The position numbers and the translations under genes are program-made. The notes under the pieces were generated by a model. That model searched no databases. It was not told where the DNA came from and saw only the letters and a program-made list of their open reading frames with translations. This document shows positions 4,885 through 49,938 of a stretch of 57,474 nucleotides of DNA, in pieces. This DNA comes from Candidatus Omnitrophota bacterium. Its GTDB lineage: Bacteria; Omnitrophota; Gorgyraeia; JABMRJ01. The DNA lies in contig JABMRJ010000030.1 of the NCBI GenBank assembly GCA_013202745.1, positions 1 to 57,474 on the forward strand, read 5' to 3'. How positions within the stretch are numbered: position 1 is the stretch's first letter; every line of letters starts with the position of its first letter.

Positions 4885-5536
4885 AAGCTATGCGCGACAG
4901 GATCTTCTGCTTGTCTGCTCTTCTAAAGCGCCTCTTGTAGAGATTTTTGTCCATCATCTCTAAATAGTCGTTGTATGTTGGTCCGTAAGGCGTAACCTTT
5001 TCCAGATCACTCTCTTTAGCCATATACTTATTGTGGCGAAGATCAAATATGTGCCAGTCCTCTCCAACCTTTACAAATGATAGAATGAGCCTCTCTGTAA
5101 TCCCTTCTATCGACAATCTAGCTTTGAAGGATTCGTATCCTGCATAACTGCAAAGGGCCGTAAAGACCTCTGCCTTCTGGTCAGGCGTACCGTATCTCCT
5201 TACGACTGTGCTCCAGATATGGTCATCTATGACATCAAAACCTGACGGCAGCTCCTTTATATTCGTTATGGTCCATGCATAGATAGCCGCTAACTTTTCT
5301 TTGCCACTCCTAGTCCCTTTTGTTATGCGCCTTGAAAGATTTCTATACTGATAATCCCTGTCGAGAAAGCTGCATGCCTTTATATAAAGGGGGATTTTCT
5401 TCTCTGTGACTAATCCGCTTACCCCCTGCCTGGTAATAACGGGTATATTGGCGATTGCAAAGACTGCGATGGCAATTGATAAAAATAGAATTATGGTCTT
5501 TTTAAATCCTGTCAATCGCATTCGAAGATATCCCAT
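4829..5536 (-). CDS. Membrane-anchored transglutaminase-like protein, catalytically degenerate paralog
   Basis: N-terminal TM anchor. It aligns by eye with the core of the 13939-15006 product, but Cys is replaced (..YGTPDQKAEVF.. versus ..SAYCDQQANTL..) and there is no His equivalent. The Asp position is kept (..WHIFDL..). Confidence 0.5.
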   Translation of the reverse strand: MGYLRMRLTGFKKTIILFLSIAIAVFAIANIPVITRQGVSGLVTEKKIPLYIKACSFLDRDYQYRNLSRRITKGTRSGKEKLAAIYAWTITNIKELPSGFDVIDDHIWSTVVRRYGTPDQKAEVFTALCSYAGYESFKARLSIEGITERLILSFVKVGEDWHIFDLRHNKYMAKESDLEKVTPYGPTYNDYLEMMDKNLYKRRFRRADKQKILSRIAYEVRKIFKGNQGAYLTEE

Positions 5537-6779: not shown

Positions 6780-6782
6780 CCC

Positions 6783-8015
6783 CTATCTTTCAAGCGTGTA
6801 TCTTCTAAACCAGCGTTTAACGATATTCTCATCAAAAAAGACGAAAAAGAAGAATAAGACAAAGTTTGTAAGCGGCAACATATAGCGGAAACCATAACTC
6901 TGCACCCTCGCCACTGCGACCAGGCTTATGATATACAGCGCAAGATATAGGTGTATCGCGGCTTCCCATATCTCCATTCGGGCCTTCTTTATAATGCGGG
7001 ATATTAGATATGCAAAATAGCCGATCCACATCAGTATCCAGTGCGGACGGAGCCTGAAATCCTCATCCAAAAGAGGCGCAAAACCGAAGCAGAATAAGAT
7101 ATTCTTGACATAATGGCCCACAAAGACCATCGGTTCCTGGCGCAGGTATTCAAGATAAGGACCGAAATTTTCATTTATCTTGTTCAATTTCGCATATACC
7201 GGAGCATCTGTATTTGAGAGATCAATGGATTTTGGTATGTGGTGGTGCTTTCTCAATAAGCCGTCCGGCTGCCCTTCTACTTTTGCAGTAGGAAGTATAT
7301 ACCATTTTCCGCATACAGAATAATTTCTCAATCCAAGAAGCGATGCTGTGGAGCCCATTATAAGCATAAAAAGGAATATATAAAGAATGCCCTTTTTGGA
7401 CTTTTTTAGATAATAACCTGCAACAGGTATAATAAGGATACCTCCATACAGAAAGAGGTTGGGCCTTGTCAGCATGGCAAGCCCTACGAGAAATGCTGAC
7501 ACAAGCTGCATCCTTAGATCATTTCTGGTAAAACCTCTTACGAAGAAAAAGAAGAATAACGCAATAATAAAAAAAAGCAGGTTTTCGCTCAATAGGCGTA
7601 TAACGTAGTATTTACACATATCTAAAACCGCAAAACCGGACATGGCAAATAGAAAAAGGATGGCCGCTATAGAGCTCATCCTATCTTTGAACGTCCAGTA
7701 TACCAACGCTATGGAAAGACCTACCATCAGGTGCTGAATCAGATATATAGGCATAAGATTTTCACCAAAGATCAAGAAACAGACGGCCACAAAATAATTG
7801 TAGAGAAACCCAGCAGGCCAGTCATAAGGGCCTTTTACAGAAGAGATCTCAAGTCCATTACGCTTGATATCCATACCGAGCCGCGCATACCTGACCCAAT
7901 CGTCATTCAATTCAGACCCAAGCATCCCTTCAAGACCGTTATTATAAGGATAGAGCCTGAAGAGTCCCAGGACCAGAAAAGCTATAATTATCATAACCGG
8001 GAATATATATTTCAC
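6783..8015 (-). CDS. Polytopic membrane protein, GT-C (ArnT-like) architecture
   Basis: 410 aa with multiple TM helices. The early extracytoplasmic loop carries acidic residues (..SELNDDWVRYARLG..). Confidence 0.5.
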   Translation of the reverse strand: MKYIFPVMIIIAFLVLGLFRLYPYNNGLEGMLGSELNDDWVRYARLGMDIKRNGLEISSVKGPYDWPAGFLYNYFVAVCFLIFGENLMPIYLIQHLMVGLSIALVYWTFKDRMSSIAAILFLFAMSGFAVLDMCKYYVIRLLSENLLFFIIALFFFFFVRGFTRNDLRMQLVSAFLVGLAMLTRPNLFLYGGILIIPVAGYYLKKSKKGILYIFLFMLIMGSTASLLGLRNYSVCGKWYILPTAKVEGQPDGLLRKHHHIPKSIDLSNTDAPVYAKLNKINENFGPYLEYLRQEPMVFVGHYVKNILFCFGFAPLLDEDFRLRPHWILMWIGYFAYLISRIIKKARMEIWEAAIHLYLALYIISLVAVARVQSYGFRYMLPLTNFVLFFFFVFFDENIVKRWFRRYTLER

Positions 8016-8021: not shown

Positions 8022-9125
8022 TTACCTCTCCGAAATCAGTTTTATCAATTCATCCGCTAAAAATTCGCCTGTCATGGTATTGCCCTTTTGAGTCTGGTGG
8101 CACCTATCGTGAAACGCATCCTCTGGGACATCTGATCTTTCGTAATACTCCTGCACATTTATATATCCCGCACCATGTTTTTTTGCCAATTCTACCGTAA
8201 GTTTATCCAGCTTTGTCCGAAAAGTTTTGTAAAAATCCCTGAACTCTCTACTGCGCCTATCTTTTGTATCTGATACTTCTTTGAGAGGCAGCCTTACTAT
8301 AATAAGCTTTATGTCATTTTCGTCACAAAATCTTTCGGCCTCTAAAAAATTTAATTCATAATTCCTAAGCGGAAGGTCTATAAATCTTCCGGCAACACCT
8401 TGCTTGTACCATTCGTCAACACTGTCGAGCTCTACGACATCTGCCATGTTGGTATATGTCCTGTAGATAAACCTGTGAAGGAACGTATAAAATAAGGAGT
8501 ATTTCTTAAGCGTCTTATCAAGCCTGTGCAGAAATATATTCACCCTGTTTATGGTAAAGTTTGACATCTCTCCTTTTAGTATATCAGTAAACTCCTCATA
8601 CAATATTTGCGCATTCCTATAAGGCCCACTATATAATATGTCGCTTTCGTTTATGTAGTTACACCATAGTATATAGTGGATCTCTCCTTCTTTCTGGCTA
8701 AAGGAAAGGTGTTCTGCTGCATAATCGCTGCTTGCGCCTCCTGTTCCAAGATTAAGCACCCTAAACCCTGTCTTATCTGGACCATAACGCTTATTTAACG
8801 CCATTTCGAGTTCAGCAGGCCAAGAAGAAGAGACCTTGCCTTCATGATAACCGTATGTGGTAGAACCGCCAAAAGCGGCAATCCTGATTATCGCCTGCGC
8901 ACTTTCCTGTCCGCCTCTTTCTGCAGATGTACCTTTTAAAGCAGTGTCTTTCTTTACAAAGGTTATCTTCTTATTGCCAACCATGACCTTGACTGAACTG
9001 TCTAAGCCGTAGCTGAAGCTCAAGCCATCGCCGCTATATAAGAACCCTGCTGTCCTTGCCAGCATCTCCAATATAATTATAGAGATCAAAAGGGCTATCA
9101 ATGAGAGTGATATATTCTTTAGCAT
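8022..9125 (-). CDS. SGNH/GDSL-type hydrolase or O-acyl esterase/transferase, membrane anchored
   Basis: N-terminal hydrophobic anchor. ..AAFGGSTTYGY.. fits the block I Ser, ..LNLGTGGASSD.. fits block II, and ..FHDRCHQTQKGN.. fits the block V DxxH. Confidence 0.6.
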   Translation of the reverse strand: MLKNISLSLIALLISIIILEMLARTAGFLYSGDGLSFSYGLDSSVKVMVGNKKITFVKKDTALKGTSAERGGQESAQAIIRIAAFGGSTTYGYHEGKVSSSWPAELEMALNKRYGPDKTGFRVLNLGTGGASSDYAAEHLSFSQKEGEIHYILWCNYINESDILYSGPYRNAQILYEEFTDILKGEMSNFTINRVNIFLHRLDKTLKKYSLFYTFLHRFIYRTYTNMADVVELDSVDEWYKQGVAGRFIDLPLRNYELNFLEAERFCDENDIKLIIVRLPLKEVSDTKDRRSREFRDFYKTFRTKLDKLTVELAKKHGAGYINVQEYYERSDVPEDAFHDRCHQTQKGNTMTGEFLADELIKLISER

Positions 9126-10162
9126 TTTCCCCTTCTCAAAAGGCTTGTAAGTATAGCATGCCTCATCTTACCCTTAATCAAATTGGTATATGGCATATAG
9201 TGGCTGCATCTTCTGCAAAATGGAGGGATGTCGCCGGACTGCCACCTGCTCCTAATTAAATTAAGCCTCTCCCCCTTCCAATAATCTGTTAGCGAATCAT
9301 ATTTAAATATATTATCTATCACCAATTCAGGCGAAACCCTGCAACTGCACATCGAGATCTCCCCGTCTTTAAGGATCTGCACCTTTCTGTATAAGCCATA
9401 ACACGGGATCCTTTTATTCTTGGGGTTAGCCTTAAACTCCGCATATTTTGGCAAATCAGCCTTTTTAACGGTTCCATCATAGTCGTCCCATTCATCCTTC
9501 TCTATCGTAGTAATATCATCTTCGCCCAAAAACTGCCTGATTCTCCTATACTCCTCACTGTGCCGCAGATCAGCTATGTTATCGTAATCTGTCCTCAGGA
9601 GCATTATTATCTTTATCGGATTGCCGAGTCTTCTGTTCGTCTCCAATAGGACCATTATATTCTTCATCGTCTTATGATAGAGATCGACACCGAACAATTT
9701 TTTGAAAATCTTTTCATCACCTATTGCAGTGGATACAGCTATATCGGTCAAGCCGCTCTTGACAAAATCCTCCACATTAAAATTATCGAGCCCTATTAAG
9801 TTTGTAAATGTAGATATCCTTTTTACGGCCGCATAACTTCGTATAAATTTAACCTTCTTTAAAAACTCCCTATCCGCAAGTGGATCTCCAAGGATCGAAC
9901 CAAAATTAAAATCGCCTCCGCCTGCCTTCTGGTACAGGTCGAGGGTATGTTTTAGGACCTTGAAGTCTACGAAACTCTTCTTTCGTCCGTCCATATTCTT
10001 GCCATAGCCGCAAAAACTGCAGTTCGCATTGCATATATTAGAAGACTCAATCCCGAATGCCATCCACCTCTCTTTAATGGAATCTTCTATTCCTTTCCTA
10101 TAAAATGGCAGTGCCAAAGATGCTGATATCGAGATTATAGATTCTGCTATTTTTTCCTTCAT
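9119..10162 (-). CDS. Radical SAM protein with SPASM/twitch-like Cys-rich C-terminal domain
   Basis: ..SSNICNANCSFCGY.. gives CxxxCxxC. The C-terminal Cys clusters are ..PCYGLY..MCSCR..FCRRCSHY.. Confidence 0.8.
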   Translation of the reverse strand: MKEKIAESIISISASLALPFYRKGIEDSIKERWMAFGIESSNICNANCSFCGYGKNMDGRKKSFVDFKVLKHTLDLYQKAGGGDFNFGSILGDPLADREFLKKVKFIRSYAAVKRISTFTNLIGLDNFNVEDFVKSGLTDIAVSTAIGDEKIFKKLFGVDLYHKTMKNIMVLLETNRRLGNPIKIIMLLRTDYDNIADLRHSEEYRRIRQFLGEDDITTIEKDEWDDYDGTVKKADLPKYAEFKANPKNKRIPCYGLYRKVQILKDGEISMCSCRVSPELVIDNIFKYDSLTDYWKGERLNLIRSRWQSGDIPPFCRRCSHYMPYTNLIKGKMRHAILTSLLRRGKC

Positions 10163-10165
10163 ATA

Positions 10166-11722
10166 TTACCTCGGGAATCTCTTTAAAATAAATTTTTGTG
10201 ATGGTATCATTTGAGTGGCATATTTAAAAAAGCTATAGCTTAAGCGCATTATCTCTAAAGAACAGATTTTCTTTAGAAGACCGAGTATTTTTGGGTTCTT
10301 CATATAGCGATATACAAACCTGCCCTTGCCTGCCATTAATTTATAGTAGAAAAAGAGTAGCAGCAAATCTATGCTGAACATTGTCGGCGCGTATGGATAT
10401 ATCCTGCCGTAATTGTATCTGCTGCGAGTCAGGAGCGTCTTTTCGACATAATCGTCCTTTATTGTCTCGTCAGTAAGGGCGGTATTGTATAATTCGGTAC
10501 CCGGATAGAACTTCAGGGAGTATACATTTAACAGTATCGATCTTTTGGCAAGTTTGTTCTGCTTTAGCCTTTCACCCAATTGGTTGAAAAAATCGATGTT
10601 TTCAATCCAATCAGATGTTTTTTCATAAGGATTCTGCAGTATCATATCTAGTTTCAAATCGATATTATGCGAAGTTATAAGATCAATCTTATCAAGGAAG
10701 GATTCTCTATTAAAATGTCTTTTGTAGATCTGCTTGTTAACCCTTTCGCTGGCACTTTGCAGACCCAGCTTCATCCATATGATATTGGCCTTATACTTTA
10801 AAAGAATCTTCAGTTTATCTTCCGTAAAAGTAGCAAAAGTGCTATAGAATATAAATGGTAAAGAAATTCTCTTTTGATATTCTGCAATAAACTTTTCAAA
10901 TTCGTCTAAACTTCTTGCAGTAAAATCATCTGACATAAAAAAGACTCTGCTTAAGCCTGGAATGATAGTCTTTGCATATTCGAGTTCTTTCATAACCCGC
11001 TCAGTATCAATACACCTGACATTTTTTCCTGCATCCTTATATATATCCTTAAGCTTGTTATTGGCGCAATAAGTGCAGGAAAATGAGCATCCCTTAATAG
11101 TGAATATCCTATAACCAAAATTGCAGGATAGATGAAGAGCTTCCGGGTCTTCTTCCAGTGAAGTAAACTTCCGGTCAAACAAGGTGTAGGTATTCTTAAA
11201 ATCAAAGCGTGGAATAGGTAGCTCGTTTAGATCGATAAGCTGTGGTAACTCATTTAAAATAACCCTGCCATCCTTAGACCTATATCCCAGGCCAGGAACT
11301 TCAAGCTCATTATCTGTCTCGAGAAAACGCTTAAGGAATGTTTCTCCTTCACCCAGGCATACAAAATCTGTAAATTTTAAAAAACGATGCGGCTCCAGCA
11401 TTACAGGAACTCCGCCTAACACTATCTTTGCTTTGGTATTTTTTGACAAAAAGCTGCTGACTTGTTGTACGCGCTTTAAATTATGTACTGATATAACAGA
11501 TATACCCACAACATTGCAATCTTGGCATTTTTCAGCAAGTATTTTCAGTTGAAAATTGTTCAGCAGGCTTATTGGATTGTCTTTTATTGTAGCACAATGA
11601 ATTACAAAGATGTCGTAACCCGATTTCCTTAAGTAGGATTCGATTGAGCGAAGGCCAAAAGTAAAGAGATTTGATGTAAATGAAACCAGTCCTATCTTTT
11701 TTTTCTTAACAACTTCAGCCAT
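10166..11722 (-). CDS. B12-binding-domain radical SAM enzyme (class B-like)
   Basis: N-terminal Rossmann-like cobalamin-binding-type domain (..KIGLVSFTSNLFTFGLRSIESYLRKSGYDIFVIH..), then ..IKGCSFSCTYCAN.. (CxxxCxxC). Confidence 0.8.
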   Translation of the reverse strand: MAEVVKKKKIGLVSFTSNLFTFGLRSIESYLRKSGYDIFVIHCATIKDNPISLLNNFQLKILAEKCQDCNVVGISVISVHNLKRVQQVSSFLSKNTKAKIVLGGVPVMLEPHRFLKFTDFVCLGEGETFLKRFLETDNELEVPGLGYRSKDGRVILNELPQLIDLNELPIPRFDFKNTYTLFDRKFTSLEEDPEALHLSCNFGYRIFTIKGCSFSCTYCANNKLKDIYKDAGKNVRCIDTERVMKELEYAKTIIPGLSRVFFMSDDFTARSLDEFEKFIAEYQKRISLPFIFYSTFATFTEDKLKILLKYKANIIWMKLGLQSASERVNKQIYKRHFNRESFLDKIDLITSHNIDLKLDMILQNPYEKTSDWIENIDFFNQLGERLKQNKLAKRSILLNVYSLKFYPGTELYNTALTDETIKDDYVEKTLLTRSRYNYGRIYPYAPTMFSIDLLLLFFYYKLMAGKGRFVYRYMKNPKILGLLKKICSLEIMRLSYSFFKYATQMIPSQKFILKRFPR

Positions 11723-13019
11723 TTTGGTTTAATCCTATACTCTTTATCCCCATTAAAAGTCCTAGTGAAAAATAGAATAATACCGCCAGCTGGAGCGAAT
11801 AGAGCGAAACGTCGAAACTGCTATGCAATAGAAAAACTGAGATTCCGCAGAAAAGGCCCAAAAATGCATACCTCAAAAAATCGTCTCTTATCAGCCTCAA
11901 CGATTTGATTGATTCTATAGCCATCTTTATAATAAGCCATAAAAAAGAAAGCAGCCCGAATATCCCGGTCTCAGCTGCTATCTGTAAATAGCAATTGTGC
12001 GCGTACCACAGCCCTCTCTCGCTTTTCTTCGGTACTTTAAATCTTTCATAGTTAGCCATAAATGTATTAAGCCCCTGCCCTGTCAATGGTTTTTCCGCAA
12101 ACATCCTTGTACCTGCTGTCCATATCCTTATCCTATGCTGAATCGAGCCATCGCCAGCTAATTTTTGCTGGAAACCCGCCGGGTCCATAAATATCAGCAA
12201 TGTAAGTATTACAATGCCCACAAGCAAGAGGGTTAAGGTAATACGAGATGTCTTTCCGCCTATTAAAAGAAGCATAAGGATCAGCCCTGCAATACAACTA
12301 ATTTGCGCTGCCCGCGTATAAGTCAGTAATAAGCAATATATAAGCAAAATAGCCAGGATTGCGCTTATCGCCTTTAATTTTAAATTCTTTTTAAAAAAGA
12401 GCGCTATGCCCATAAATGGGAATAAGACCACAGATATCCAGATACTCAATCCATTAGGGAATTTAAAAGGCCCGGTCACCCTCCATTTGTTGTATAGGAT
12501 TTCACCCTCTATAGAACCGAAGCCTGTAAATTTTTGCCACTTGCCGTCTACTGATATCCTATCCAATCCGTACATAGTATATCTTCTTATAAAATCGAAA
12601 CCGGTAATCTTCTGGTAGATAACGTCTACGCAGACAATAAATGCCGAAAGCGCTATTGCCCTGATAATGTTGCGTACAACCCTTCTTTCGCTTACGGCCT
12701 CAAAGACTATAAAATAGAGGAATATATACTCTGTTAGCTTGCGTATAAAGGCACTTATACTTATATCTATATGAGTAGACCAGAATATGGATAGGAAACC
12801 GATCAAATAAAACGCCAGCATAGGCCGGTTTAAACCTGTCTGCGGCAGCCTAAGGCCGCTCTTACCCATAAAGACCCTCTTGAGTATCCAGGATGATATG
12901 GCTATAATGGCACATACCTCTATTGCGGTCTTCGAAAACGGGAGTGAAAATATGAGTATATATAGGGCCCACTCTATCAATATATTTAAGGCGCTTATGA
13001 TCTTATTCTTATCCACCAT
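11715..13019 (-). CDS. O-antigen ligase/polymerase family (Wzy_C domain) membrane protein
   Basis: 434 aa, about 10-12 hydrophobic helices. ..GLWYAHNCYLQIAAETGIFGLLSFL.. is the typical Wzy_C loop motif. Confidence 0.8.
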   Translation of the reverse strand: MVDKNKIISALNILIEWALYILIFSLPFSKTAIEVCAIIAISSWILKRVFMGKSGLRLPQTGLNRPMLAFYLIGFLSIFWSTHIDISISAFIRKLTEYIFLYFIVFEAVSERRVVRNIIRAIALSAFIVCVDVIYQKITGFDFIRRYTMYGLDRISVDGKWQKFTGFGSIEGEILYNKWRVTGPFKFPNGLSIWISVVLFPFMGIALFFKKNLKLKAISAILAILLIYCLLLTYTRAAQISCIAGLILMLLLIGGKTSRITLTLLLVGIVILTLLIFMDPAGFQQKLAGDGSIQHRIRIWTAGTRMFAEKPLTGQGLNTFMANYERFKVPKKSERGLWYAHNCYLQIAAETGIFGLLSFLWLIIKMAIESIKSLRLIRDDFLRYAFLGLFCGISVFLLHSSFDVSLYSLQLAVLFYFSLGLLMGIKSIGLNQNG

Positions 13020-13036
13020 CCTCTACTCCTGTTTAG

Positions 13037-13942
13037 CTATATGGAATAACCATAAAGCGCTAAAGATGTCTCTCTTACAGACTCTTTTGGCCTCTTTGTA
13101 AAGAAATGATTTTTCCATAAGGTCCTGTCCTTAATTCCCGGCTTTGGCAATGTCAAAGGGCGTTCTTCTTCAACAAGGCCTGCGTTTGTTATAAGGTAAG
13201 CATCATATCCATAATCTTTCATTAGATCGAATATTTCTCTCTTATTTTTGGAGTTTATCATTAATTCCATAATGAAATCGGCATTCCCTCTCTTTAAAAG
13301 AGGCATTGAGCCCTTTAGGATATTCAATTCATTCTCTTCACAGTCAAGTTTTATTAAGATATCGGAGCTATCATCGCCAGCTACAAGAGGCAAGGTGGTA
13401 GTCTGGACCGTCTTCGTCTTATATGGAATATGACTAAAGATTCCATCTGTTCCTTTAAACGAATTTATAAGTGAGGAGGAGTTTGGCAGTTTGGAACTCC
13501 TGGAAGAAACAGGATAATATATTATAGCTTTGCTATTCTTATCAATATCGAGGGCCTTCTCTATCAATTTAAACTCTATGTTATTTACCCTCTTTAGCCT
13601 TTTTATATATTCAATATTATCCGGAAAAGGCTCTACGGCAATAACCTCAACGCCTTTTGGCATGTAGATCGACGCAATGATCGAATAGAAGCCTATATAC
13701 GCCCCTGCATCAATAAATTTGTCTATATGCCAAGGATAATTCTCAATCAACGTTACCACTTCCCCCTCAAAAGACCTGTATCCGTCCACGGTAATCTGCT
13801 TTAAGAGCGTCGATTTAGAAAGGTCGTGGAATGATATCTTTTTATCTTTTATCTTAAAACTTTTTTTGTTTAAGATCTTGAATCTTATCAACAACTCCAT
13901 CAATACCCTTTTTTTAAAAAGGATGAAGAGACGCCTTATCAT
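13037..13942 (-). CDS. FkbM-family SAM-dependent methyltransferase
   Basis: ..FIDAGAYIGFYSIIAS.., ..AVEPFPDNIEYIKRL.., ..LIKLDCEENELNILKG.. Confidence 0.8.
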   Translation of the reverse strand: MIRRLFILFKKRVLMELLIRFKILNKKSFKIKDKKISFHDLSKSTLLKQITVDGYRSFEGEVVTLIENYPWHIDKFIDAGAYIGFYSIIASIYMPKGVEVIAVEPFPDNIEYIKRLKRVNNIEFKLIEKALDIDKNSKAIIYYPVSSRSSKLPNSSSLINSFKGTDGIFSHIPYKTKTVQTTTLPLVAGDDSSDILIKLDCEENELNILKGSMPLLKRGNADFIMELMINSKNKREIFDLMKDYGYDAYLITNAGLVEEERPLTLPKPGIKDRTLWKNHFFTKRPKESVRETSLALYGYSI

Positions 13943-15006
13943 TTCCCCTCCCGTGTGAGTCTTAATAGATTACGTTGTCCCGGACGTACGGCTTTTAAAT
14001 AAAATGGCTTTGCCTTATCAAAGTCGTTTAGCCTTTCGTATGAATTGCCTAAATAAAATTGGGCTGCTACATCCCATCTGCTTCTGGGATGCTCTTTCGA
14101 AAACTTATTGAATTCCAAAATGGCTCTATTGTAATCGCCTTTATCCCAGATTGCCTGGGCCCTGTAAAATGCCGCTTCAGATCTTATCAAGTCGCTGCTC
14201 TTTGCATCGCTTATGGCGATGGTATAATCGGCGATGGCCTCATCCAATCTAAAGGCCATATGCTTAAGCCTCCCTCTGAAGAAAGGCCTGATATCCCACA
14301 ATCTAAAATACGATTCTTGAAATAATATCACAAAGACATCACCGAAAAGGTCGTAATAAAGGCTTATAAATTCTGATGCTAGAATCCTCTTTATATCCTT
14401 CGTGTTGATTGTGGGTCTATATGTGGGTTCATACAGCCTATAATAGTTAGCTGGGTTATAACCTGAATACAACTGCATCGCCTCAAAGGCATCTGACCTT
14501 ATCGCTTTGTCTCTTTTTTGAATATCCTCAAAGGTAGCAATAGCCCCATCATTATCATAAAAGATGATGGCATAATAAGGATCGAAGATCCTATATTTTC
14601 CGTCTATATAGAGGTCGCAGACCGAGTGGTGTGAAGCTTCATCATATCCGCGCAAGAATATAAGACGACCTTTAATGCCCGCCTTTCTTGCCAGCCAAAG
14701 AAGGGTATTTGCCTGCTGGTCGCAATAGGCAGAGCCCCTCAGTATATCATTTAACGGAAACTCATTTACGGCATAAACATTGCTTACCTTAAAAATGTGC
14801 GTGCATAGATAGTCGAACAATCTGATCGCCTTCTCCTCATCAGATTTAGCCCCTTGTGTTACCTTCTCTGCTATTACCTTGTGGGCCAATTCTCTGTTGA
14901 TGTAGTCACGCAGTACCTTCGGCCCCAATAAGGTGCCAAATGGCAATAAAGACGCTATGAGAAAAAGAAGAATGACTATAAATAAAAACCTGGTTATTTT
15001 TGACAT
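13939..15006 (-). CDS. Membrane-anchored transglutaminase-like cysteine enzyme with C-terminal TPR repeats
   Basis: N-terminal TM segment. ..RGSAYCDQQANTLLWLARKAGIKGRL.. supplies the Cys, ..ASHHSVCDLY.. the His, and ..YRIFDP.. the Asp. TPR-like repeats lie at the C-terminus (..AAFYRAQAIWDKGDYNRAILEFNKF.., ..AQFYLGNSYERLNDFDKAKPFYLKA..). Confidence 0.7.
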   Translation of the reverse strand: MSKITRFLFIVILLFLIASLLPFGTLLGPKVLRDYINRELAHKVIAEKVTQGAKSDEEKAIRLFDYLCTHIFKVSNVYAVNEFPLNDILRGSAYCDQQANTLLWLARKAGIKGRLIFLRGYDEASHHSVCDLYIDGKYRIFDPYYAIIFYDNDGAIATFEDIQKRDKAIRSDAFEAMQLYSGYNPANYYRLYEPTYRPTINTKDIKRILASEFISLYYDLFGDVFVILFQESYFRLWDIRPFFRGRLKHMAFRLDEAIADYTIAISDAKSSDLIRSEAAFYRAQAIWDKGDYNRAILEFNKFSKEHPRSRWDVAAQFYLGNSYERLNDFDKAKPFYLKAVRPGQRNLLRLTREGK

Positions 15007-15019
15007 CTGATATTCTCCA

Positions 15020-15997
15020 TTACCTTTTAACCGCTTGTATAAAAGCCCCGCTTGTCGTCAGATCTTCTTTTGAGATATCTGAAAATCTTGATGATAGGTC
15101 TCCGATGCTTATCCTGGAATCACTCTTTACCTTAGAATCATATACAATGTCAAAGCCGCACTCTTTTATAAACCTGATATGCCTTGAGTGTGGATGCCTA
15201 TTTAACAAGTATGGTCTCTTTCCCCTTATTAATCTCCAGATAGCATCTGAGTAAGTCCAGTGGCCATTCCACTCGCCTGCTGTGCCGTGGTCCTTAAAAT
15301 CAATCTGATGTGACATAAAGCCACCATCCCTGAGCCAGCTATATAAAGCCTTATAAGTCCCTAAAAGGTCATCCACGTGTTCCAATACAGCCTGCGAATA
15401 TACCATATCAACAGATCCCTCTTTGATAATATCTGCAGCATACCAGGGAGCAAAATATGCTATCTGCGTCCCGCAGCAGCATCTATTTTTTCTATCTAAA
15501 AGGGCTTTTCTTATCGCTTCTATCCTGCTGGGTCTTAGTGCCCCTTCAAGGCGTTCTTCTGTCAAAATATGATCAGGGAATTCATATGAATCCAAATAAG
15601 GTTTTATCCTCGGAAATTCGTCTTCCCCGGGAATCATTTCGCGTCGTTTAAAAAGCTCTGCCAATTCATCAAAAATTTCCATATTCTTATCTGCCAAAGC
15701 ATGCTTTACAATATCCAATGCATAATACCTATCTGCACCTGAGAGTAGGGCAGCCAGACCTATCCCCAGAGAATCTCCCGGCCCAAGTTCGGCAACAACC
15801 TCCGGCTGGATCGAAAGCCCGTGCTTTTGCGCAAGGACAAGGTGCCGCAGCCAGACTGAATAACAATATCTGGCAGATATCGTTCCACCCGTGCCTTTCG
15901 ATGCAATCTTATGTAACCCCGGGATATAGGTCCCGAGACCTTTTAATATAGGCAAAAGATACAAATTGTCAGCTTCCCTTGGAAACAAAACTTTCAA
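15020..15997 (-). CDS. Class I SAM-dependent methyltransferase
   Basis: ..VVAELGPGDSLGIGLAALLSGADRYYALD.. contains the glycine-rich SAM motif I followed by an acidic motif II. Confidence 0.7.
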   Translation of the reverse strand: MKVLFPREADNLYLLPILKGLGTYIPGLHKIASKGTGGTISARYCYSVWLRHLVLAQKHGLSIQPEVVAELGPGDSLGIGLAALLSGADRYYALDIVKHALADKNMEIFDELAELFKRREMIPGEDEFPRIKPYLDSYEFPDHILTEERLEGALRPSRIEAIRKALLDRKNRCCCGTQIAYFAPWYAADIIKEGSVDMVYSQAVLEHVDDLLGTYKALYSWLRDGGFMSHQIDFKDHGTAGEWNGHWTYSDAIWRLIRGKRPYLLNRHPHSRHIRFIKECGFDIVYDSKVKSDSRISIGDLSSRFSDISKEDLTTSGAFIQAVKR

Positions 15998-17204
15998 TCA
16001 TAGTTAAGACTTCCTTCTGTTGTCCTGTTTCAGATTTGTCCAATAGTGAGTTCAAATTTTCTAGAAAAGATAAAATTTTTTCGCTCCATTCCTGGTTATT
16101 GAAATTAGGGCTTGTAAATTGCAGGAGATGGATAAAATCATCGAGAGCCCTGCCCACACCGGGCTTTGATACACAACATTGTTTACATTGCGGGATCACC
16201 ATCTCCTCTTCCTGTAAATGCTGCCTTCTGATTTTCTGTGCAATTTCAGAACGCCATATTTTAGAGATGGGCTGCTCGACTGCATCACCTATTATCAGTT
16301 GGTCATCATAATCACGGCAACAAAGTGTAGCCTTGCCTTTATTATTAAAAAATATACTGTTAAAAACAGTGGAACATGGTATCTTCCGTTGATATAAATT
16401 TGGGAAAGGTAATTTTTTTTCATCAAAATAATTTGTATCTGGCGTCAAGCTATTAATAAGAGCGAAATGTATATTTTCTGGAAAGGTATATTTGGAAAAC
16501 ACACGGAAAAAAGTTGCCATCTCTTTGATGTTTTCCTTTGATATAACGCAGTTGATAAATAATGATATGTTAGACATATGCCGTCTTTTATTGGTCTTGA
16601 CTACCCACTCACAGCTCTCTATTACTTTTGCCAGCTTTCCGTCAACTCTTATCTTTTCGTATGTTTCAGGGGTAGCAGCATCCACAGAAAAGCGAAATCC
16701 TTTAACCCAATCAGGATTTGCTTCATAGACAGACTTCAGTCTCTGGTGAAGATTGGCATTAGTGCTGATCAGAACCTCAATACCCATCTTCTTTGCTATG
16801 GATATAGCTTCTTTTAGCCAAGGATATACAAGGGGTTCCCCGACTGTGTGTAAGGAGACTGCATTCACACCCTCATCCTTTATACGCTCCAACAATCTTT
16901 TATATATCTTTAAATCCATGTGCGCCTTTTTTCTTTTGGCAAGATGCGTCCCGCACATTGGGCATTTTAGATTACAAATATTGCTGAGTTCAATTAGATG
17001 ACCGCCGGGCTTCTCTCGTAATTTAGTAAGTTGCAAAGGCCTTAAGCATGAATTTAAAGATTGTTGGAGTCTTTGCTGATAATACAATTTCCCGTTATGC
17101 TTTATCTTCTTATTTATCATCATATACTTAAAATGCCGCAGATAAGGAAAATGGTAAATAATATAATTCTCAATTTTTAAGAATTTAAATCTCCTAGAAG
17201 ACAT
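15969..17204 (-). CDS. Radical SAM protein with SPASM-like C-terminal domain
   Basis: ..LSNICNLKCPMCGT.. gives CxxxCxxC. The C-terminus carries ..IPCSTVF..ATLCCRDYDD.. and ..IPQCKQCCVSKPG.. Confidence 0.8.
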   Translation of the reverse strand: MSSRRFKFLKIENYIIYHFPYLRHFKYMMINKKIKHNGKLYYQQRLQQSLNSCLRPLQLTKLREKPGGHLIELSNICNLKCPMCGTHLAKRKKAHMDLKIYKRLLERIKDEGVNAVSLHTVGEPLVYPWLKEAISIAKKMGIEVLISTNANLHQRLKSVYEANPDWVKGFRFSVDAATPETYEKIRVDGKLAKVIESCEWVVKTNKRRHMSNISLFINCVISKENIKEMATFFRVFSKYTFPENIHFALINSLTPDTNYFDEKKLPFPNLYQRKIPCSTVFNSIFFNNKGKATLCCRDYDDQLIIGDAVEQPISKIWRSEIAQKIRRQHLQEEEMVIPQCKQCCVSKPGVGRALDDFIHLLQFTSPNFNNQEWSEKILSFLENLNSLLDKSETGQQKEVLTMIESFVSKGS

Positions 17205-18426
17205 GCTGTTCCTTTCTATAATCCTTTAGACTCTTTAATAAGCACTCTTCGTAATTTTTAGCAATGGGAAGCAGATCGAACTGGCTTGCCCTCTCAATCC
17301 CTGCATCTGCATATTTTTTAAAAAGATCTTTATTGTCCAAAATGCGTTCAATAGCATCTGAAAGGTTCGATATAGATAATTTATTAATCAGTATGCCGTA
17401 TTTTGATTCAACAATATCATCCATCTCCTGCCTCTCGGGTAATAACATTTCAGAAGGGCCGGATGGGCAATTGTTCACGATAACCGGACAACGGCAGGCC
17501 ATAGATTCCAATACGGCATTAGGAAAACCTTCCCAGAGCGATGATAAAACAAAGACATTTGAACGCATAATATATTTATAAGGATTCTTCTGCCAACCCA
17601 TAAAGAGCACTCTATCATAAATACGCAGCCTTTTGGACTCTCTAATTAGCTTCTCCTTAAGCTCGCCGTCTCCGATAATAGCAAGGCGGATAGGCCGTTT
17701 TGCCGCTATCCGGGCCGTTGCCCTTAAGAGATATATGTGGCCTTTCTGCTTTGTAAGTCTTCCCACATTTATGACAACAGGGATATCTTTCTGCTTAAAC
17801 CACTCTTCCTCCACCTCTTCTTTGGCAAAATGTTCAATCTCCTTGATATATAAAGGATTATAAACTACATTTATAGCATTTCGCTCAACCTTGAAATAGG
17901 TTACTATTTCATCTTTAATAACATATGAATTGACAAAGGTTACTTCAGCATATCTCCATAATCGCTCAAGGGCTATCCTGCATATAAATTTGAATAAACG
18001 GGGTATGTTTTCATACTGCTTTGTCAGGCATACTCTTACATTAACACACGGAGAGTGCTTAGCCCCGAATGCCTTTGCCATCAAATTGATTACGTTGGGC
18101 CTCTGCATAAAACTTAAAACTATATCTACATCATTGTTTTCAACAAAGTCTTTTAGTATAAAAGGATCATATATTAAAGAACGTGTTTTGCTGAATATAT
18201 CGCGCTTTCCATAATAGAGCCTCGTAACCTCTATATCATCGGATATGGGATAGTCGGCACTCCCTTCCAGAAGTAAAATAGAGACGCGATACCTGCCGGA
18301 ATCAACCAGGGCGCGTGAAAGATTAACAACAACGCGTTCGGCTCCTCCATACCGTAAAGAAGGTATAAAGAATAGCAGGTGCTTCTTTTTATCCTTTTTC
18401 TCTTCTGATAATTTCTTCATAAACAT
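17194..18426 (-). CDS. Glycosyltransferase family 4 (GT-B)
   Basis: ..GRLTKQKGHIYLL.. and ..SSLWEGFPNAVLESMACRCPVIV.. (E-x7-E motif). Confidence 0.85.
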   Translation of the reverse strand: MFMKKLSEEKKDKKKHLLFFIPSLRYGGAERVVVNLSRALVDSGRYRVSILLLEGSADYPISDDIEVTRLYYGKRDIFSKTRSLIYDPFILKDFVENNDVDIVLSFMQRPNVINLMAKAFGAKHSPCVNVRVCLTKQYENIPRLFKFICRIALERLWRYAEVTFVNSYVIKDEIVTYFKVERNAINVVYNPLYIKEIEHFAKEEVEEEWFKQKDIPVVINVGRLTKQKGHIYLLRATARIAAKRPIRLAIIGDGELKEKLIRESKRLRIYDRVLFMGWQKNPYKYIMRSNVFVLSSLWEGFPNAVLESMACRCPVIVNNCPSGPSEMLLPERQEMDDIVESKYGILINKLSISNLSDAIERILDNKDLFKKYADAGIERASQFDLLPIAKNYEECLLKSLKDYRKEQHVF

Positions 18427-37881: not shown

Positions 37882-37883
37882 AG

Positions 37884-40434: not shown

Positions 40435-40437
40435 ACA

Positions 40438-47184: not shown

Positions 47185-47187
47185 AAA

Positions 47188-49936: not shown

Positions 49937-49938
49937 AT

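What the first reader, a model, noticed from the sequence alone, without database searches (positions are those of the whole stretch)
9119..17204. Radical SAM-rich decoration block: two SPASM-type and one B12-type enzyme (a fourth radical SAM enzyme lies at 48539-49936)
The radical SAM enzymes here are:
- 9119-10162: CNANCSFC plus a Cys-rich tail.
- 10166-11722: B12-binding domain plus CSFSCTYC, immediately adjacent to the first.
- 15969-17204: CNLKCPMC plus ..CCRDYDD../..CKQCC...

All three are embedded among the Wzy_C, methyltransferase and GT genes. A second B12-type enzyme sits in the NulO region.

SPASM/twitch radical SAM enzymes are best known for peptide maturation. A few act on carbohydrates (BtrN-type dehydrogenation). 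Class B enzymes typically methylate unactivated carbons (Fom3/GenK-type).

Four such enzymes in one glycan locus points to chemistry beyond ordinary glycan tailoring: C-methylation, radical epimerisation, oxidation or dehydration of sugars.
Basis: partly seen in the sequence, partly recalled or inferred. Interest (0 to 1): 0.65.

Follow-up and report, generated by a model that had tools for sequence, protein, structure and literature searches.

The report
Radical SAM enzymes in glycan locus
Four iron-sulfur "radical SAM" enzymes from uncharacterised families sit inside a 57-kb cell-surface sugar operon, and because their relatives elsewhere keep the same gene neighbours they most likely do radical chemistry on surface sugars that nobody has yet demonstrated.

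Summary
Four intact radical SAM (rSAM) genes lie at the stated coordinates in one 57-kb minus-strand glycan operon.

One correction: the two "SPASM-type" enzymes pass the Pfam SPASM model but lack the CX2CX5CX3C half of the seven-Cys motif. Both families keep only CX12GX4C…(43)…CX2C, which is a one-cluster twitch domain.

- **Nearest solved relative.** Family profiles place BtrN, the sugar-type twitch dehydrogenase, first (E 3e-26 and 1e-14). Peptide maturases score far lower.
- **Classification.** None of the four reaches any NCBIfam cut-off.
- **What is absent.** There is no RiPP recognition domain, no room for a precursor peptide and no sulfatase.
- **Context elsewhere.** Most relatives in other metagenomes lie among NeuB, CMP-sugar synthetase, SDR, aminotransferase, glycosyltransferase, FkbM and MsbA-like exporter genes.
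- **Fusions.** Natural fusions join this domain to an FkbM methyltransferase and to a GT2. Another fuses a class B enzyme to a twitch enzyme.
- **Precedent.** Brachyspira plasmid pBHWA1 carries six rSAM genes of the same architecture among rfb genes. The phenomenon has been seen before, but the enzymes there were not characterised.

Best reading: cytoplasmic, BtrN-like oxidation or epimerisation plus B12-dependent C-methylation of sugar intermediates. The chemistry is inferred, not shown.

The parts
9119..10162 (-). rSAM1: twitch-type radical SAM enzyme, 347 aa. Motifs: CNANCSFC, then C254-X12-G267-X4-C272 ... C316-X2-C319.
   Evidence: Pfam Radical_SAM and SPASM. Invariant Cys in 25 homologues. 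AF2 pLDDT 92.4. The family profile hits BtrN at E 1e-14 across core and twitch domain. No NCBIfam cut-off is met.
10166..11722 (-). B12-2: class B radical SAM enzyme with a cobalamin-binding domain, 518 aa, motif CSFSCTYC. It lies 3 bp upstream of rSAM1.
   Evidence: Pfam B12-binding and Radical_SAM. The family profile is nearest to QCMT 9CCB, CysS, AprD4 and TokK. Homologues lie in glycan loci L008 and L164. The fusion P0136 joins this type to a twitch rSAM.
15969..17204 (-). rSAM3: twitch-type radical SAM enzyme, 411 aa. Motifs: CNLKCPMC, then C277-X12-G290-X4-C295, the extra invariant C296, and C340-X2-C343. Helical N- and C-terminal extensions.
   Evidence: Pfam. Invariant Cys in 24 homologues. 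AF2 pLDDT 92.5. The family profile hits BtrN at E 3e-26 and BlsE at 3e-14. It is a sister family of rSAM1 (hhalign E 5.6e-27).
48539..49936 (-). B12-4: second class B radical SAM enzyme, 465 aa, motif CPFRCTFC, inside the pseudaminic-acid-type gene block.
   Evidence: Pfam B12-binding 61 bits and Radical_SAM 74 bits. Best NCBIfam hit is HpnJ at 142 bits against a cut-off of 578. PDB sequence search: 9CCB and TokK at about 1e-11.
15020..15997 (-). Class I SAM methyltransferase whose start overlaps the end of rSAM3 by 29 nt.
   Evidence: Pfam Methyltransf_11/23. Overlap shown. The same three-gene order occurs on an independent 3.4-kb contig, L001.
13037..13942 (-). FkbM-family methyltransferase, with a paralogue at 2118-2987.
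   Evidence: Pfam Methyltransf_21. FkbM is the commonest family among neighbours of rSAM1 homologues. It is fused to an rSAM1-like domain in P0367.
11715..13019 (-). Wzy_C (O-antigen ligase or polymerase-like) polytopic membrane protein between the rSAM genes.
   Evidence: Pfam Wzy_C 86 bits. Multiple hydrophobic segments.
13939..15006 (-). Transglutaminase-like plus TPR protein with an N-terminal membrane anchor.
   Evidence: Pfam. TM segment at residues 1-32. TPR is fused to rSAM1-like domains in P0368 and P0333.
8022..9125 (-). GDSL-family esterase or acyltransferase with an N-terminal anchor, overlapping the end of rSAM1.
   Evidence: Pfam Lipase_GDSL. TM segment at residues 1-30.
3043..8015 (-). 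Three PMT_2 (GT-C, ArnT/PMT-like) membrane glycosyltransferases, plus a small transglutaminase-like ORF at 4829-5536.
   Evidence: Pfam. PMT_2 also neighbours rSAM3 homologues in L002 and L010.
17194..19573 (-). Two GT4 glycosyltransferases.
   Evidence: Pfam.
19744..21504 (-). MsbA-like fused ABC exporter. It recurs beside rSAM1 and rSAM3 homologues.
   Evidence: Pfam. Homologues in L006/L090 (656 bits), L007, L099, L102 and L161.
21517..22623 (-). Conserved unknown protein with a faint GT-B signature that travels with rSAM1 and B12-2 homologues.
   Evidence: No Pfam hit at E<=1e-3. Faint Glyco_trans_1_2 and RXYLT1_C. Homologues in L007, L008, L095, L098, L102, L104 and L105.
32116..57441 (-). 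Two nonulosonic-acid pathways and their N-acyl remodelling genes. Included: PseB, PseC, PseG-like, two NeuB, two CMP-sugar synthetases, a NeuC-like 2-epimerase, PIG-L deacetylases, formyltransferase-like genes, a carbamoyltransferase and WbuX/HisH/HisF.
   Evidence: Pfam and NCBIfam. PseC reaches 449 bits, above its cut-off of 423.

Best explanation
**Setting.** The window is one co-directional cell-surface glycan operon. It makes two nonulosonic acids, remodels their N-acyl groups, assembles a glycan, exports it through an MsbA-like ABC transporter and decorates it outside the cytoplasm.

**The enzymes.** The four rSAM enzymes are soluble cytoplasmic tailoring enzymes of this pathway. They act on nucleotide-activated or lipid-linked sugar intermediates before export.

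**rSAM1 and rSAM3.** These are sister twitch-type enzymes built like BtrN. The proposed steps are:
1. The CX3CX2C cluster cleaves SAM.
2. 5'-deoxyadenosyl radical abstracts a hydrogen from a sugar carbon.
3. The single, fully Cys-ligated auxiliary [4Fe-4S] cluster oxidises the substrate radical to a ketone. Alternatively, a conserved extra Cys (C296 in rSAM3, C274 in rSAM1) returns a hydrogen atom to the opposite face, giving an epimer.
4. Neighbouring methyltransferases and transferases take the product further.

**The two class B enzymes.** They most likely use methylcobalamin to C-methylate an unactivated carbon of the same kind of intermediate. They probably work together with a twitch enzyme.

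**Shown versus inferred.**
- Shown: gene identity, motifs, fold class, nearest solved relatives, conserved genomic company and domain fusions.
- Inferred: substrate, reaction type, order of steps and cofactor loading.
For: **Architecture**
- The rSAM motif is present, together with only CX12GX4C ... 43 residues ... CX2C. These are invariant in 24 and 25 homologues, and there is no CX2CX5CX3C.
- This matches the twitch definition of one auxiliary cluster, fully ligated by four Cys in BtrN (PMC6231123).

**Nearest solved relatives by family profile**
- rSAM3 family: BtrN at E 3e-26 over core and twitch domain, BlsE at 3e-14, then SkfB at 1e-12.
- rSAM1 family: BtrN at 1e-14, MoaA at 2e-6, SkfB and SuiB at about 1e-2 to 1e-3.
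- All four twitch Cys align with Cys of BtrN.
- In Foldseek, BtrN gives the lowest rmsd among the full-length matches and the highest target TM-score (0.76 and 0.68).

**No peptide machinery**
- Gaps in the block are 17 bp or less.
- The N-termini are helices only.
- No PqqD, peptidase or sulfatase is present.

**Conserved company of rSAM1 homologues**
- Of 17 metagenomic loci of 8 kb or more, 8 carry NeuB and 8 carry a CMP-sugar synthetase.
- Of 128 neighbouring ORFs, the top families are FkbM 9, class I methyltransferase 8, SDR 7, GT4 7, CTP_transf_3 6 and AsnB 5. No RiPP family appears among the 25 commonest.

**Context of rSAM3 and B12-2 homologues**
- rSAM3 homologues at 40-56% identity lie in glycan loci L002, L161, L162 and L003.
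- B12-2 homologues lie in glycan loci L008 and L164.

**Fusions**
- P0367 is FkbM plus an rSAM1-like domain (E 2e-35).
- P0315 is rSAM, TPR, a methyltransferase, an rSAM1-like domain and a GT2.
- P0136 is a class B enzyme plus an rSAM3-like twitch enzyme.

**Class B and twitch genes occur together** in the window, L002, L099, L108, L162 and L164.

**Localisation**
- The rSAMs lack TM segments.
- The GDSL protein, the transglutaminase-TPR protein, the PMT_2 proteins and Wzy_C are membrane or exported proteins.

**Independent precedent.** Six twitch-pattern rSAM genes lie among rfb and GT genes on Brachyspira plasmid pBHWA1.
Against: - No tool result identifies a substrate or a product.
- Identity to BtrN is under 20%.
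- Foldseek E-values for sugar-acting and peptide-acting enzymes overlap, at 1e-9 to 1e-7.
- PMC6231123 warns that sequence clustering predicts function poorly in this subfamily.
- Two rSAM3 homologues are in other contexts. L005 (36% identity) lies with ScmC, further rSAMs and PqqD. L163 (43%) lies with hydrolase, ECH and SDR genes.
- One B12-2 homologue (36%) in Sulfurimonas has no glycan neighbours.
- The nearest solved relative of both class B enzymes is QCMT, a protein glutamine C-methyltransferase.
- Class B enzymes also perform non-methylation chemistry, such as ring contraction by OxsB. AprD4, a related rSAM without B12 by my recollection, is a diol dehydratase.
- Cluster and cobalamin binding cannot be tested in silico here.
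Confidence: 0.6

Rival explanations
1. The enzymes belong to the glycan pathway but do not act on a sugar ring. They would modify the non-sugar parts instead: the N-acyl substituents of the diamino nonulosonic acids or their free-acid precursors, or the lipid carrier or anchor. An example is stepwise C-methylation of an acyl group.
For: - The locus is unusually rich in N-acyl remodelling genes: three PIG-L, four formyltransferase-like, two GNAT, FemAB, ATP-grasp, an AsnB-like gene and a carbamoyltransferase.
- B12-4 lies beside a LarA-like hydroxyacid-racemase homologue and an ATP-grasp ligase.
- rSAM3 homologues in L161 and L162 sit with a 2-hydroxyacid dehydrogenase and an AMP-binding enzyme.
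- The class B profile hits include the iterative methylases CysS and TokK.
- Weak NCBIfam hits go to lipid-acting rSAMs: the ladderane type, Tes and HpnJ.
- B12-2 homologues have a C-terminal hydrophobic helix.
- The window encodes a CDP-alcohol phosphatidyltransferase and a KpsS/C-like protein.
Against: - The twitch families' best solved relatives act on cyclitol or sugar rings (BtrN, BlsE).
- All the lipid and acyl family hits are far below their cut-offs.
- No acyl carrier protein lies next to the window's rSAMs.
Confidence: 0.2
2. They are peptide or protein maturases. Candidates are RiPP maturases, an anSME-like enzyme activator, or modifiers of the glycosylated target protein, as SPASM/twitch and QCMT-type enzymes commonly are.
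For: - Pfam SPASM hits are present.
- Foldseek lists SuiB, CteB, SkfB, anSME and EpeE among the top matches.
- rSAM3's best NCBIfam hit is a tungsten-enzyme maturase, at 96 bits.
- An Acidobacteria homologue (36%) lies with ScmC and PqqD.
- QCMT is the nearest solved relative of the class B enzymes.
- TPR domains are fused to some rSAM1 relatives.
Against: - No NCBIfam cut-off is reached; for example 96 bits against 380.
- There is no RRE or PqqD domain. The N-termini are helices only.
- Gaps near the rSAMs are 17 bp or less, so there is no precursor ORF.
- No sulfatase, peptidase or RiPP transporter is present in the 57 kb.
- The second SPASM cluster motif is absent.
- No RiPP family appears among the 25 commonest Pfam families of the neighbours of 20 homologous loci.
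- Peptide maturases score 8-14 orders of magnitude worse than BtrN in profile searches.
Confidence: 0.1
3. The rSAM genes are functionally unrelated passengers, for example cofactor or housekeeping enzymes that merely lie in the operon.
For: No substrate is known. Some homologues occur outside glycan loci.
Against: - The genes are tightly overlapping or abutting within one operon.
- The same families recur in glycan loci of unrelated metagenomes.
- Fusions to an FkbM methyltransferase and to a GT2 exist.
- No match reaches the cut-off of any housekeeping rSAM equivalog such as MoaA, QueE or HemW.
Confidence: 0.05

Closest known systems
BtrN (butirosin 2-deoxy-scyllo-inosamine dehydrogenase; twitch radical SAM; PDB 4M7T)
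   Same: - Top solved relative of both twitch families by profile search, at E 3e-26 and 1e-14, over the rSAM core and the C-terminal domain.
- All four auxiliary-cluster Cys align.
- It is a single-cluster twitch domain.
- In Foldseek it has the lowest rmsd among full-length matches and the highest target TM-score.
- It acts on an amino-cyclitol, which is sugar-like.
   Different: - Identity is under 20%.
- The window enzymes carry helical N- and C-terminal extensions.
- They have an extra conserved Cys next to a cluster ligand: C296 is invariant in rSAM3, and C274 is present in most rSAM1 homologues.
- Their context is a cell-surface nonulosonic-acid glycan operon, not an aminoglycoside antibiotic cluster.
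- The reaction is unknown.
Other carbohydrate-acting radical SAM enzymes (BlsE, DesII, SpeY)
   Same: BlsE is the second-best profile hit for the rSAM3 family, at 3e-14. DesII, BlsE and SpeY are among the top Foldseek matches. They act on nucleotide- or nucleoside-linked sugars.
   Different: Similarity is low and mostly confined to the rSAM core. No NCBIfam cut-off is met; rSAM_BlsE scores 18 bits against 400.
Class B (cobalamin-dependent) radical SAM enzymes: QCMT (9CCB), CysS, TokK, GenK/Fom3-type C-methylases, HpnJ, OxsB
   Same: An N-terminal B12-binding domain plus an rSAM core. The nearest solved relatives are QCMT, CysS and TokK. From my own knowledge, GenK and Fom3 show that this class can C-methylate sugar-like substrates.
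   Different: - No equivalog cut-off is met: HpnJ scores 142 bits against 578, and TIGR04013 scores 67 against 251.
- The two window enzymes are barely similar to each other (E 1e-4).
- A 2026 review of the class does not contain the words 'polysaccharide' or 'sugar'.
- Methylation, as opposed to another reaction, is not established.
Radical SAM-rich LOS/rfb block of Brachyspira hyodysenteriae plasmid pBHWA1
   Same: - Seven rSAM genes lie among rfbF, rfbC, epimerase, glycosyltransferase and rhamnan-synthesis genes.
- Six have the same CX3CX2C + CX12GX4C + CX2C pattern without CX2CX5CX3C.
- They match rSAM3 and rSAM1 at E 1e-25 to 1e-12.
- Their functions were not characterised in the cited study, although the block was linked to virulence (PMC4267127).
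   Different: - Identity is only 23-27%.
- The block is plasmid-borne and has a rhamnose/CDP-hexose context, not a nonulosonic-acid one.
- The annotation lists no B12-binding or cobalamin-dependent protein.
SPASM peptide and protein maturases (anSME, SuiB, CteB, PqqE; twitch SkfB)
   Same: The rSAM core is followed by a Cys-rich C-terminal domain that matches Pfam SPASM. They appear in the Foldseek lists.
   Different: - The second-cluster motif is missing.
- There is no RRE.
- There is no precursor gene and no sulfatase.
- Profile scores are much weaker than for BtrN.

Membership tests
Radical SAM superfamily (PF04055) | CX3CX2C cluster motif and an rSAM core domain scoring above the Pfam gathering cut-off. 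| tested here: met
   All four proteins meet it. Scores are 41, 60, 58 and 74 bits against a cut-off of 29.5. Motifs were located and are invariant in the families.
SPASM subfamily (two auxiliary clusters) | Seven-Cys motif CX9-15GX4C - gap - CX2CX5CX3C - gap - C (PMC6231123). | tested here: not met
   The first half (CX12GX4C) and a CX2C are present. There is no CX2CX5CX3C in rSAM1 or rSAM3, and the families have only 4-5 invariant C-terminal Cys. The Pfam SPASM HMM still passes its cut-off, at 34 and 41 bits against 21.5.
Twitch subfamily (one auxiliary cluster) | A truncated SPASM domain that provides the ligands for a single auxiliary cluster, as in BtrN. | tested here: met
   The patterns are C254/C272/C316/C319 in rSAM1 and C277/C295/C340/C343 in rSAM3. 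They are invariant and align with Cys residues of the BtrN twitch domain.
Twitch subfamily (one auxiliary cluster) | The protein actually binds a second [4Fe-4S] cluster. | not testable with these tools
   This needs Fe/S analysis, EPR or Mössbauer spectroscopy.
BtrN-type sugar or cyclitol dehydrogenase | Two-electron oxidation of a secondary alcohol on a carbohydrate-like substrate. | not testable with these tools
   Only homology is available: the best PDB relative, at under 20% identity. No BtrN model appeared among the NCBIfam hits.
Class B (cobalamin-dependent) radical SAM | An N-terminal B12-binding domain fused to an rSAM core. | tested here: met
   PF02310 scores 39 and 61 bits against a cut-off of 32.1. 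The nearest solved relatives are the B12-dependent enzymes QCMT, CysS and TokK.
Class B (cobalamin-dependent) radical SAM | Cobalamin binding and methyl transfer to carbon. | not testable with these tools
   This needs a biochemical assay. AprD4, which from my own knowledge lacks B12, and the non-methylating OxsB are also among the relatives.
Anaerobic sulfatase-maturating enzyme (anSME) | [quoted passage not shown] | tested here: not met
   The second-cluster motif is absent. No sulfatase family was found in any of the 52 ORFs. No anSME model appeared among the NCBIfam hits.
RiPP radical SAM maturase | An RRE/PqqD-like leader-binding domain (fused or adjacent) and a precursor peptide gene. 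| tested here: not met
   The N-terminal extensions are purely helical. No PqqD is present in the window. Gaps around the rSAM genes are 17 bp or less. All RiPP NCBIfam models score far below their cut-offs.
Prokaryotic viperin (pVip) | The NCBIfam viperin_w_prok equivalog score, in a defence-island context. | tested here: not met
   The score is 53.6 bits against a cut-off of 180. The PADLOC pVip hit of 60 bits covers the rSAM core only, residues 73-229. The context is a glycan operon.
HpnJ / hopanoid class B rSAM | The NCBIfam TIGR03471 equivalog score, with hopanoid (hpn) gene neighbours. | tested here: not met
   Scores are 142 bits (B12-4) and 57 bits (B12-2) against a cut-off of 577.6. 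No hpn genes are present in the window.

The most novel reading that the evidence does not exclude
A BtrN-like twitch rSAM and a cobalamin-dependent rSAM form a conserved two-enzyme module, sometimes fused into a single polypeptide. The module would rebuild the carbon skeleton of a nonulosonic acid or a neighbouring sugar in a bacterial surface glycan, for example by radical oxidation or epimerisation followed by C-methylation at an unactivated carbon. I know of no characterised example of radical SAM or B12 chemistry in cell-surface glycan biosynthesis, so this would be the first to my knowledge. It would also predict new C-branched or epimeric nonulosonic acids.
Probability: 0.3. Interest if true: 0.75.

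Novelty: new variant of a known kind. Interest (0 to 1): 0.55.

Why it matters
**Gap in current knowledge.** To my knowledge, sugar-modifying radical SAM enzymes are characterised almost only in antibiotic pathways, such as butirosin, gentamicin, desosamine and blasticidin.
- The paper library returned no paper containing both 'radical SAM' and 'nonulosonic'.
- A 2026 review of B12-dependent rSAM enzymes does not contain the words 'polysaccharide' or 'sugar'.

**What is new here.**
- Two sister twitch families and a class B family recur in nonulosonic-acid and O-antigen-like loci across unrelated uncultured lineages.
- They are fused in nature to sugar methyltransferase and glycosyltransferase domains.
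- They share their architecture with the uncharacterised rSAM genes of the virulence-linked Brachyspira plasmid.

**Why that is useful.** This defines a concrete, testable enzyme class for surface-glycan chemistry in anaerobes. Possible products are keto, epimeric or C-methyl sugars, which would matter for antigenic diversity, phage and immune recognition, and biocatalysis.

**Caveat.** This is a lead, not a demonstrated new chemistry.

Tried and rejected
- **NCBIfam subgroup assignment.** All four enzymes fall below every curated cut-off.
- **Single-sequence PDB searches.** The hits were weak or absent. Family profiles were needed.
- **Foldseek of the two AF2 models.** It confirms the fold, but sugar-acting and peptide-acting enzymes have overlapping E-values, so it does not discriminate.
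- **anSME reading.** Rejected: no sulfatase is present and the second cluster motif is missing.
- **RiPP reading.** Rejected for the window: no precursor space, no RRE and no PqqD. A distant homologue does sit in such a context.
- **Defence or viperin reading.** Rejected: the match covers the rSAM core only and lies below the cut-offs.
- **Rfam scan, for example for a cobalamin riboswitch.** No match.
- **Promoter and terminator scan of 8-22 kb.** Counts do not differ from shuffles, so there is no evidence for sub-operon boundaries. The one exception is a promoter-like site in the only long gap, at 19574-19743.
- **GTDB species-genome scan for rSAM3.** The best hit is only 36% identical (a Magnetospirillum MAG) and the rest are 31% or lower, so the family proper is not in species representatives. 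The first attempt, with the wide alignment, failed.
- **Source organism.** All the window proteins looked up are representatives of clusters of one or two members at 90% identity. The record is an NCBI/JGI metagenomic contig of 113 kb whose name is not shown, so taxonomy stays unknown.
- **Literature searches** linking rSAM to pseudaminic or legionaminic acid, flagellin glycosylation or O-antigen clusters gave only incidental annotation-level mentions.
- **Unknown ORFs** 928-2109, 21517-22623 and 44937-46610 gave only faint GT-B hints.

Full report
**Observation**

The 57,474-bp window is a single minus-strand gene train of about 52 ORFs at roughly 40% G+C. Most neighbouring genes overlap or lie fewer than 20 bp apart. 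The only long gap is 170 bp, at 19574-19743.

Pfam scores, all above gathering thresholds:

| ORF | Label | Pfam domains |
|---|---|---|
| 9119-10162 | rSAM1 | Radical_SAM + SPASM |
| 10166-11722 | B12-2 | B12-binding + Radical_SAM |
| 15969-17204 | rSAM3 | Radical_SAM + SPASM |
| 48539-49936 | B12-4 | B12-binding + Radical_SAM |

The genes between and around them are also as described: Wzy_C, an FkbM methyltransferase, a transglutaminase-TPR protein, a class I methyltransferase, a GDSL protein, two GT4 and three PMT_2.

**What the locus is**

Pfam and NCBIfam give a coherent picture:
- **First nonulosonic-acid pathway (about 46-57 kb).** A pseudaminic-acid-type set: a PseB fragment, PseC above its equivalog cut-off, an AKR, a CMP-sugar synthetase, a PseG-like gene, an ATP-grasp ligase, NeuB, a GNAT, PIG-L and a formyltransferase-like gene. 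B12-4 and a LarA-like gene are inserted in this set.
- **Second nonulosonic-acid pathway (about 32-45 kb).** A 4,6-dehydratase, DegT, a formyltransferase-carbamoyltransferase fusion, NeuB, a formyltransferase, PIG-L, a NeuC-like 2-epimerase, HisF/HisH/WbuX amidotransferases, a CBS-nucleotidyltransferase and a CMP-sugar synthetase.
- **Anchor or linker genes.** A CDP-alcohol phosphatidyltransferase and a KpsS/C-like protein.
- **Further acyl and amide tailoring, glycosyltransferases and an MsbA-like ABC exporter.**
- **The 'decoration block' holding the three rSAM genes.**

Hydropathy analysis shows that the rSAMs, methyltransferases and GT4s are soluble. GDSL, transglutaminase-TPR, PMT_2, Wzy_C and the exporter are membrane or exported proteins. 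The rSAM steps must therefore happen in the cytoplasm, before export.

**Classification of the two 'SPASM' enzymes**

Homologues are few and come from metagenomes or metagenome-assembled genomes. None has a functional name.

In 24 rSAM3 relatives the invariant cysteines are:
- C77/C81/C84, the rSAM cluster.
- C277, C295, C296, C340 and C343 in the C-terminal domain.

In 25 rSAM1 relatives they are:
- C44/C48/C51, the rSAM cluster.
- C254, C272, C316 and C319 in the C-terminal domain.

Both families therefore keep CX12GX4C, then 43 residues, then CX2C. Neither has the CX2CX5CX3C that builds the second auxiliary cluster of a true SPASM domain (definitions in PMC6231123). These are twitch domains with one auxiliary cluster.

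The two families are sisters (hhalign probability 99.7%, E 5.6e-27). AlphaFold models are confident, at pLDDT 92.5 and 92.4. They show only helical N-terminal extensions and no RRE-like beta-sheet domain.

**Nearest characterised relatives**

- **Single sequences.** These gave little.
- **Foldseek.** It mixed sugar-acting enzymes (BtrN, BlsE, DesII, SpeY) and peptide-acting enzymes (SuiB, CteB, SkfB, anSME, EpeE) at similar E-values. BtrN superposed best.
- **Family profiles.** These discriminate.
  - rSAM3 profile: BtrN at 3e-26 over both domains, BlsE at 3e-14, SkfB at 1e-12.
  - rSAM1 profile: BtrN at 1e-14, MoaA at 2e-6, peptide maturases at about 1e-2 to 1e-3.
- **Cysteine alignment.** The four twitch cysteines align with cysteines of BtrN. 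C296 of rSAM3 aligns with a Phe in BtrN, so it is an extra, invariant Cys beside a cluster ligand.
- **NCBIfam.** None of the four proteins reaches any curated cut-off.
- **Class B family.** The B12-2 profile is nearest to QCMT (9CCB), CysS, AprD4, TokK and OxsB. B12-2 and B12-4 are only marginally similar to each other.

**Evidence from other loci**

*rSAM1 relatives*
- P0076 (53% identity) lies in this order: NeuB, CMP-synthetase, a homologue of window ORF 928-2109, a second SPASM-type rSAM, then the rSAM1 homologue. Downstream come homologues of the window's GT1 (24360), GFO/IDH/MocA (23340), formyltransferase-like gene (22639) and ABC exporter (19744).
- P0082 (46%, Lentisphaerae) lies among PseG-GNAT, NeuB, PIG-L, a methyltransferase, another rSAM, a homologue of window ORF 21517, a GT, the ABC exporter, FkbM and AsnB genes.
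- A metagenome scan gave 30 loci at 27% identity or more. Of the 17 that are 8 kb or longer, 8 have NeuB and 8 have a CMP-sugar synthetase.
- An unbiased Pfam census of 128 ORFs within 4 kb in 20 loci is dominated by FkbM, class I methyltransferases, SDRs, GT4, CTP_transf_3, AsnB, NeuB, ABC transporters and further rSAMs. No RiPP-associated family appears among the 25 commonest.
- The family comprises about 281 clusters (at 50% identity) at E<=1e-30 among 1.84 billion representatives. It is real but small.

*rSAM3 relatives at 40-56% identity*
- L002: two class B rSAMs, GT2, PMT_2 and Pse genes.
- L161: an acyl-activation kit, a formyltransferase, an ABC exporter, a 4,6-dehydratase, DegT and PglD.
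- L162: a class B rSAM, methyltransferases, a homologue of window ORF 44937 and a NeuB fragment.
- L003: an archaeal TagF/Wzm/Wzt locus.
- L010: a 36% homologue in a Magnetospirillum MAG is followed by PMT_2.

*Exceptions*
- L163 (43%) lies among hydrolase, ECH and SDR genes.
- L005 (36%) lies with ScmC, other rSAMs and PqqD.

*B12-2 relatives*
- They lie in glycan loci L008 and L164. L164 again carries a SPASM-type rSAM.
- One copy, in Sulfurimonas, does not.

**Domain fusions**

Among relatives of the rSAM1 profile:
- P0367 is an FkbM methyltransferase fused to a full-length rSAM1-like enzyme (30% identity, E 2e-35).
- P0315 (1,977 aa) strings together rSAM/SPASM, TPR, Methyltransf_24, an rSAM1-like domain and a GT2.
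- P0368 and P0333 carry N-terminal TPR domains.

P0136 (849 aa) fuses a B12-2-like class B enzyme to an rSAM3-like twitch enzyme that keeps C-X17-CC...CX2C.

Class B and twitch genes also occur together in the window (3 bp apart), L002, L099, L108, L162 and L164. Together with the fusion, this points to a functional pair.

**Precedent**

A tblastn search of plasmids found Brachyspira hyodysenteriae pBHWA1.
- Its annotation lists seven rSAM genes among rfbF, rfbC, an epimerase, glycosyltransferases, rhamnan-synthesis genes and a GDP-mannose dehydratase.
- Six of them have the same twitch pattern and match rSAM3 and rSAM1 at E 1e-25 to 1e-12.
- A block including these genes correlates with virulence, and that study did not determine their biochemical role (PMC4267127).
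- Phase-variable 'MoaA/NifB/PqqE/SkfB-family' rSAM genes are listed among SDR, methyltransferase and formyltransferase genes in C. fetus (PMC6321876).
- An rSAM gene lies in a capsule cluster of C. jejuni HS:19 (PMC8743553).

rSAM genes in surface-glycan loci have therefore been noticed, but I found no report of their chemistry. The library held no paper combining 'radical SAM' with 'nonulosonic'. A 2026 review of B12-dependent rSAM enzymes does not contain the words 'polysaccharide' or 'sugar'.

**Most likely mechanism (inferred)**

1. rSAM1 and rSAM3 cleave SAM at the CX3CX2C cluster.
2. They abstract a hydrogen from a sugar carbon of a nucleotide- or lipid-linked intermediate.
3. They then either pass the electron to the fully ligated auxiliary cluster, giving a ketone as BtrN does, or re-deliver hydrogen from the extra conserved Cys, giving an epimer.
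4. The class B partners methylate an unactivated carbon through methylcobalamin.
5. FkbM and class I methyltransferases, transferases and the exporter complete the pathway.

I put about 0.6 on 'radical tailoring of carbohydrate intermediates of this glycan', and about 0.4 on the specific oxidation or epimerisation plus C-methylation chemistry. The rivals are:
- Action on N-acyl groups, their precursors or the lipid part (0.2).
- Peptide or protein maturation (0.1).
- Unrelated passenger genes (0.05).

**Verdict**

The finding is real. I rate it a new variant of a known kind: sugar-tailoring rSAM enzymes, here in nonulosonic-acid surface-glycan operons and paired with class B enzymes. It has clear experimental handles. 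Interest is moderate, at 0.55.

Noticed in passing
window 49939-51156 (-): A LarA-like protein lies between NeuB (51161-52192) and the class B rSAM (48539-49936). Evidence: Lar_N domain, and best NCBIfam hit nickel-dependent malate racemase LarAH6 at 205 bits against a cut-off of 500. No larBCE cofactor genes are in the window, and no homologue occurs in any fetched locus. A nickel-pincer racemase homologue inside a nonulosonic-acid cluster is unexplained.
   Followed up: partly
window 21517-22623, 928-2109, 44937-46610 (-): Three conserved proteins without Pfam assignment recur beside rSAM1, rSAM3 or B12-2 homologues in L006/L090, L007, L008, L095, L098, L102, L104, L105 and L162. Two of them have faint GT-B signatures: 21517-22623 (Glyco_trans_1_2, RXYLT1_C) and 44937-46610 (PIGA). 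They may be novel transferases, possibly for nonulosonic acids.
   Followed up: partly
window 22639-48542 (-): The set of N-acyl remodelling genes is unusually large. It includes:
- Three PIG-L de-N-acetylases (27264, 37884, 47844).
- Four formyltransferase-like genes (22639, 38555, 40438, 47188).
- Two GNATs, FemAB and an AsnB-like gene.
- WbuX/HisH/HisF.
This suggests several different N-substituents on the diamino sugars.
   Followed up: no
window 40438-42864 (-): An 808-aa fusion of a formyltransferase-like N-terminal domain with a NodU/CmcH-type carbamoyltransferase, placed inside the second NeuB pathway.
   Followed up: no
window 29761-32102 (-): A KpsS/C-like Capsule_synth protein and a CDP-alcohol phosphatidyltransferase hint at a lipid-anchored, linker-primed polymer. 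The listed ORFs overlap by 127 nt, so the upstream start is probably mis-set.
   Followed up: no
window 19574-19743: This is the only long intergenic gap (170 bp) in the 57 kb. It holds a sigma-70-like site on the minus strand (19602-19574) just upstream of the GT4 gene, so it may be an internal promoter for the decoration block. Site counts in the region do not exceed shuffles.
   Followed up: partly
L165 (Brachyspira hyodysenteriae pBHWA1, NC_012226) 5835-18593: Seven rSAM genes lie among rfb, glycosyltransferase and rhamnan-synthesis genes. Six have the same twitch Cys pattern as the window enzymes. The block is linked to virulence in PMC4267127 and could serve as a culturable model.
   Followed up: partly
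P0315, P0367, P0136, P0368, P0333 (proteins): Natural fusion proteins:
- rSAM/SPASM + TPR + methyltransferase + rSAM1-like + GT2 (1,977 aa).
- FkbM + rSAM1-like.
- Class B rSAM + rSAM3-like twitch (849 aa).
- TPR + rSAM1-like.
   Followed up: partly
L005 4120-12295 (Acidobacteria MAG JAHINJ010000089): A 36% rSAM3 homologue sits with ScmC, three other rSAMs, PqqD and two methyltransferases. This is a RiPP-like cassette, so the wider clade is not exclusively glycan-associated.
   Followed up: no
L009 10001-12675 (Sulfurimonas sp. chromosome): A 36% B12-2 homologue lies alone between a Mu-like prophage and a FlaG gene, with no glycan genes within 10 kb.
   Followed up: no
window 13939-15006 and 4829-5536 (-): Two membrane-anchored transglutaminase-like proteins, one with TPR repeats, lie within a glycan decoration block. 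Their role there is unclear.
   Followed up: no
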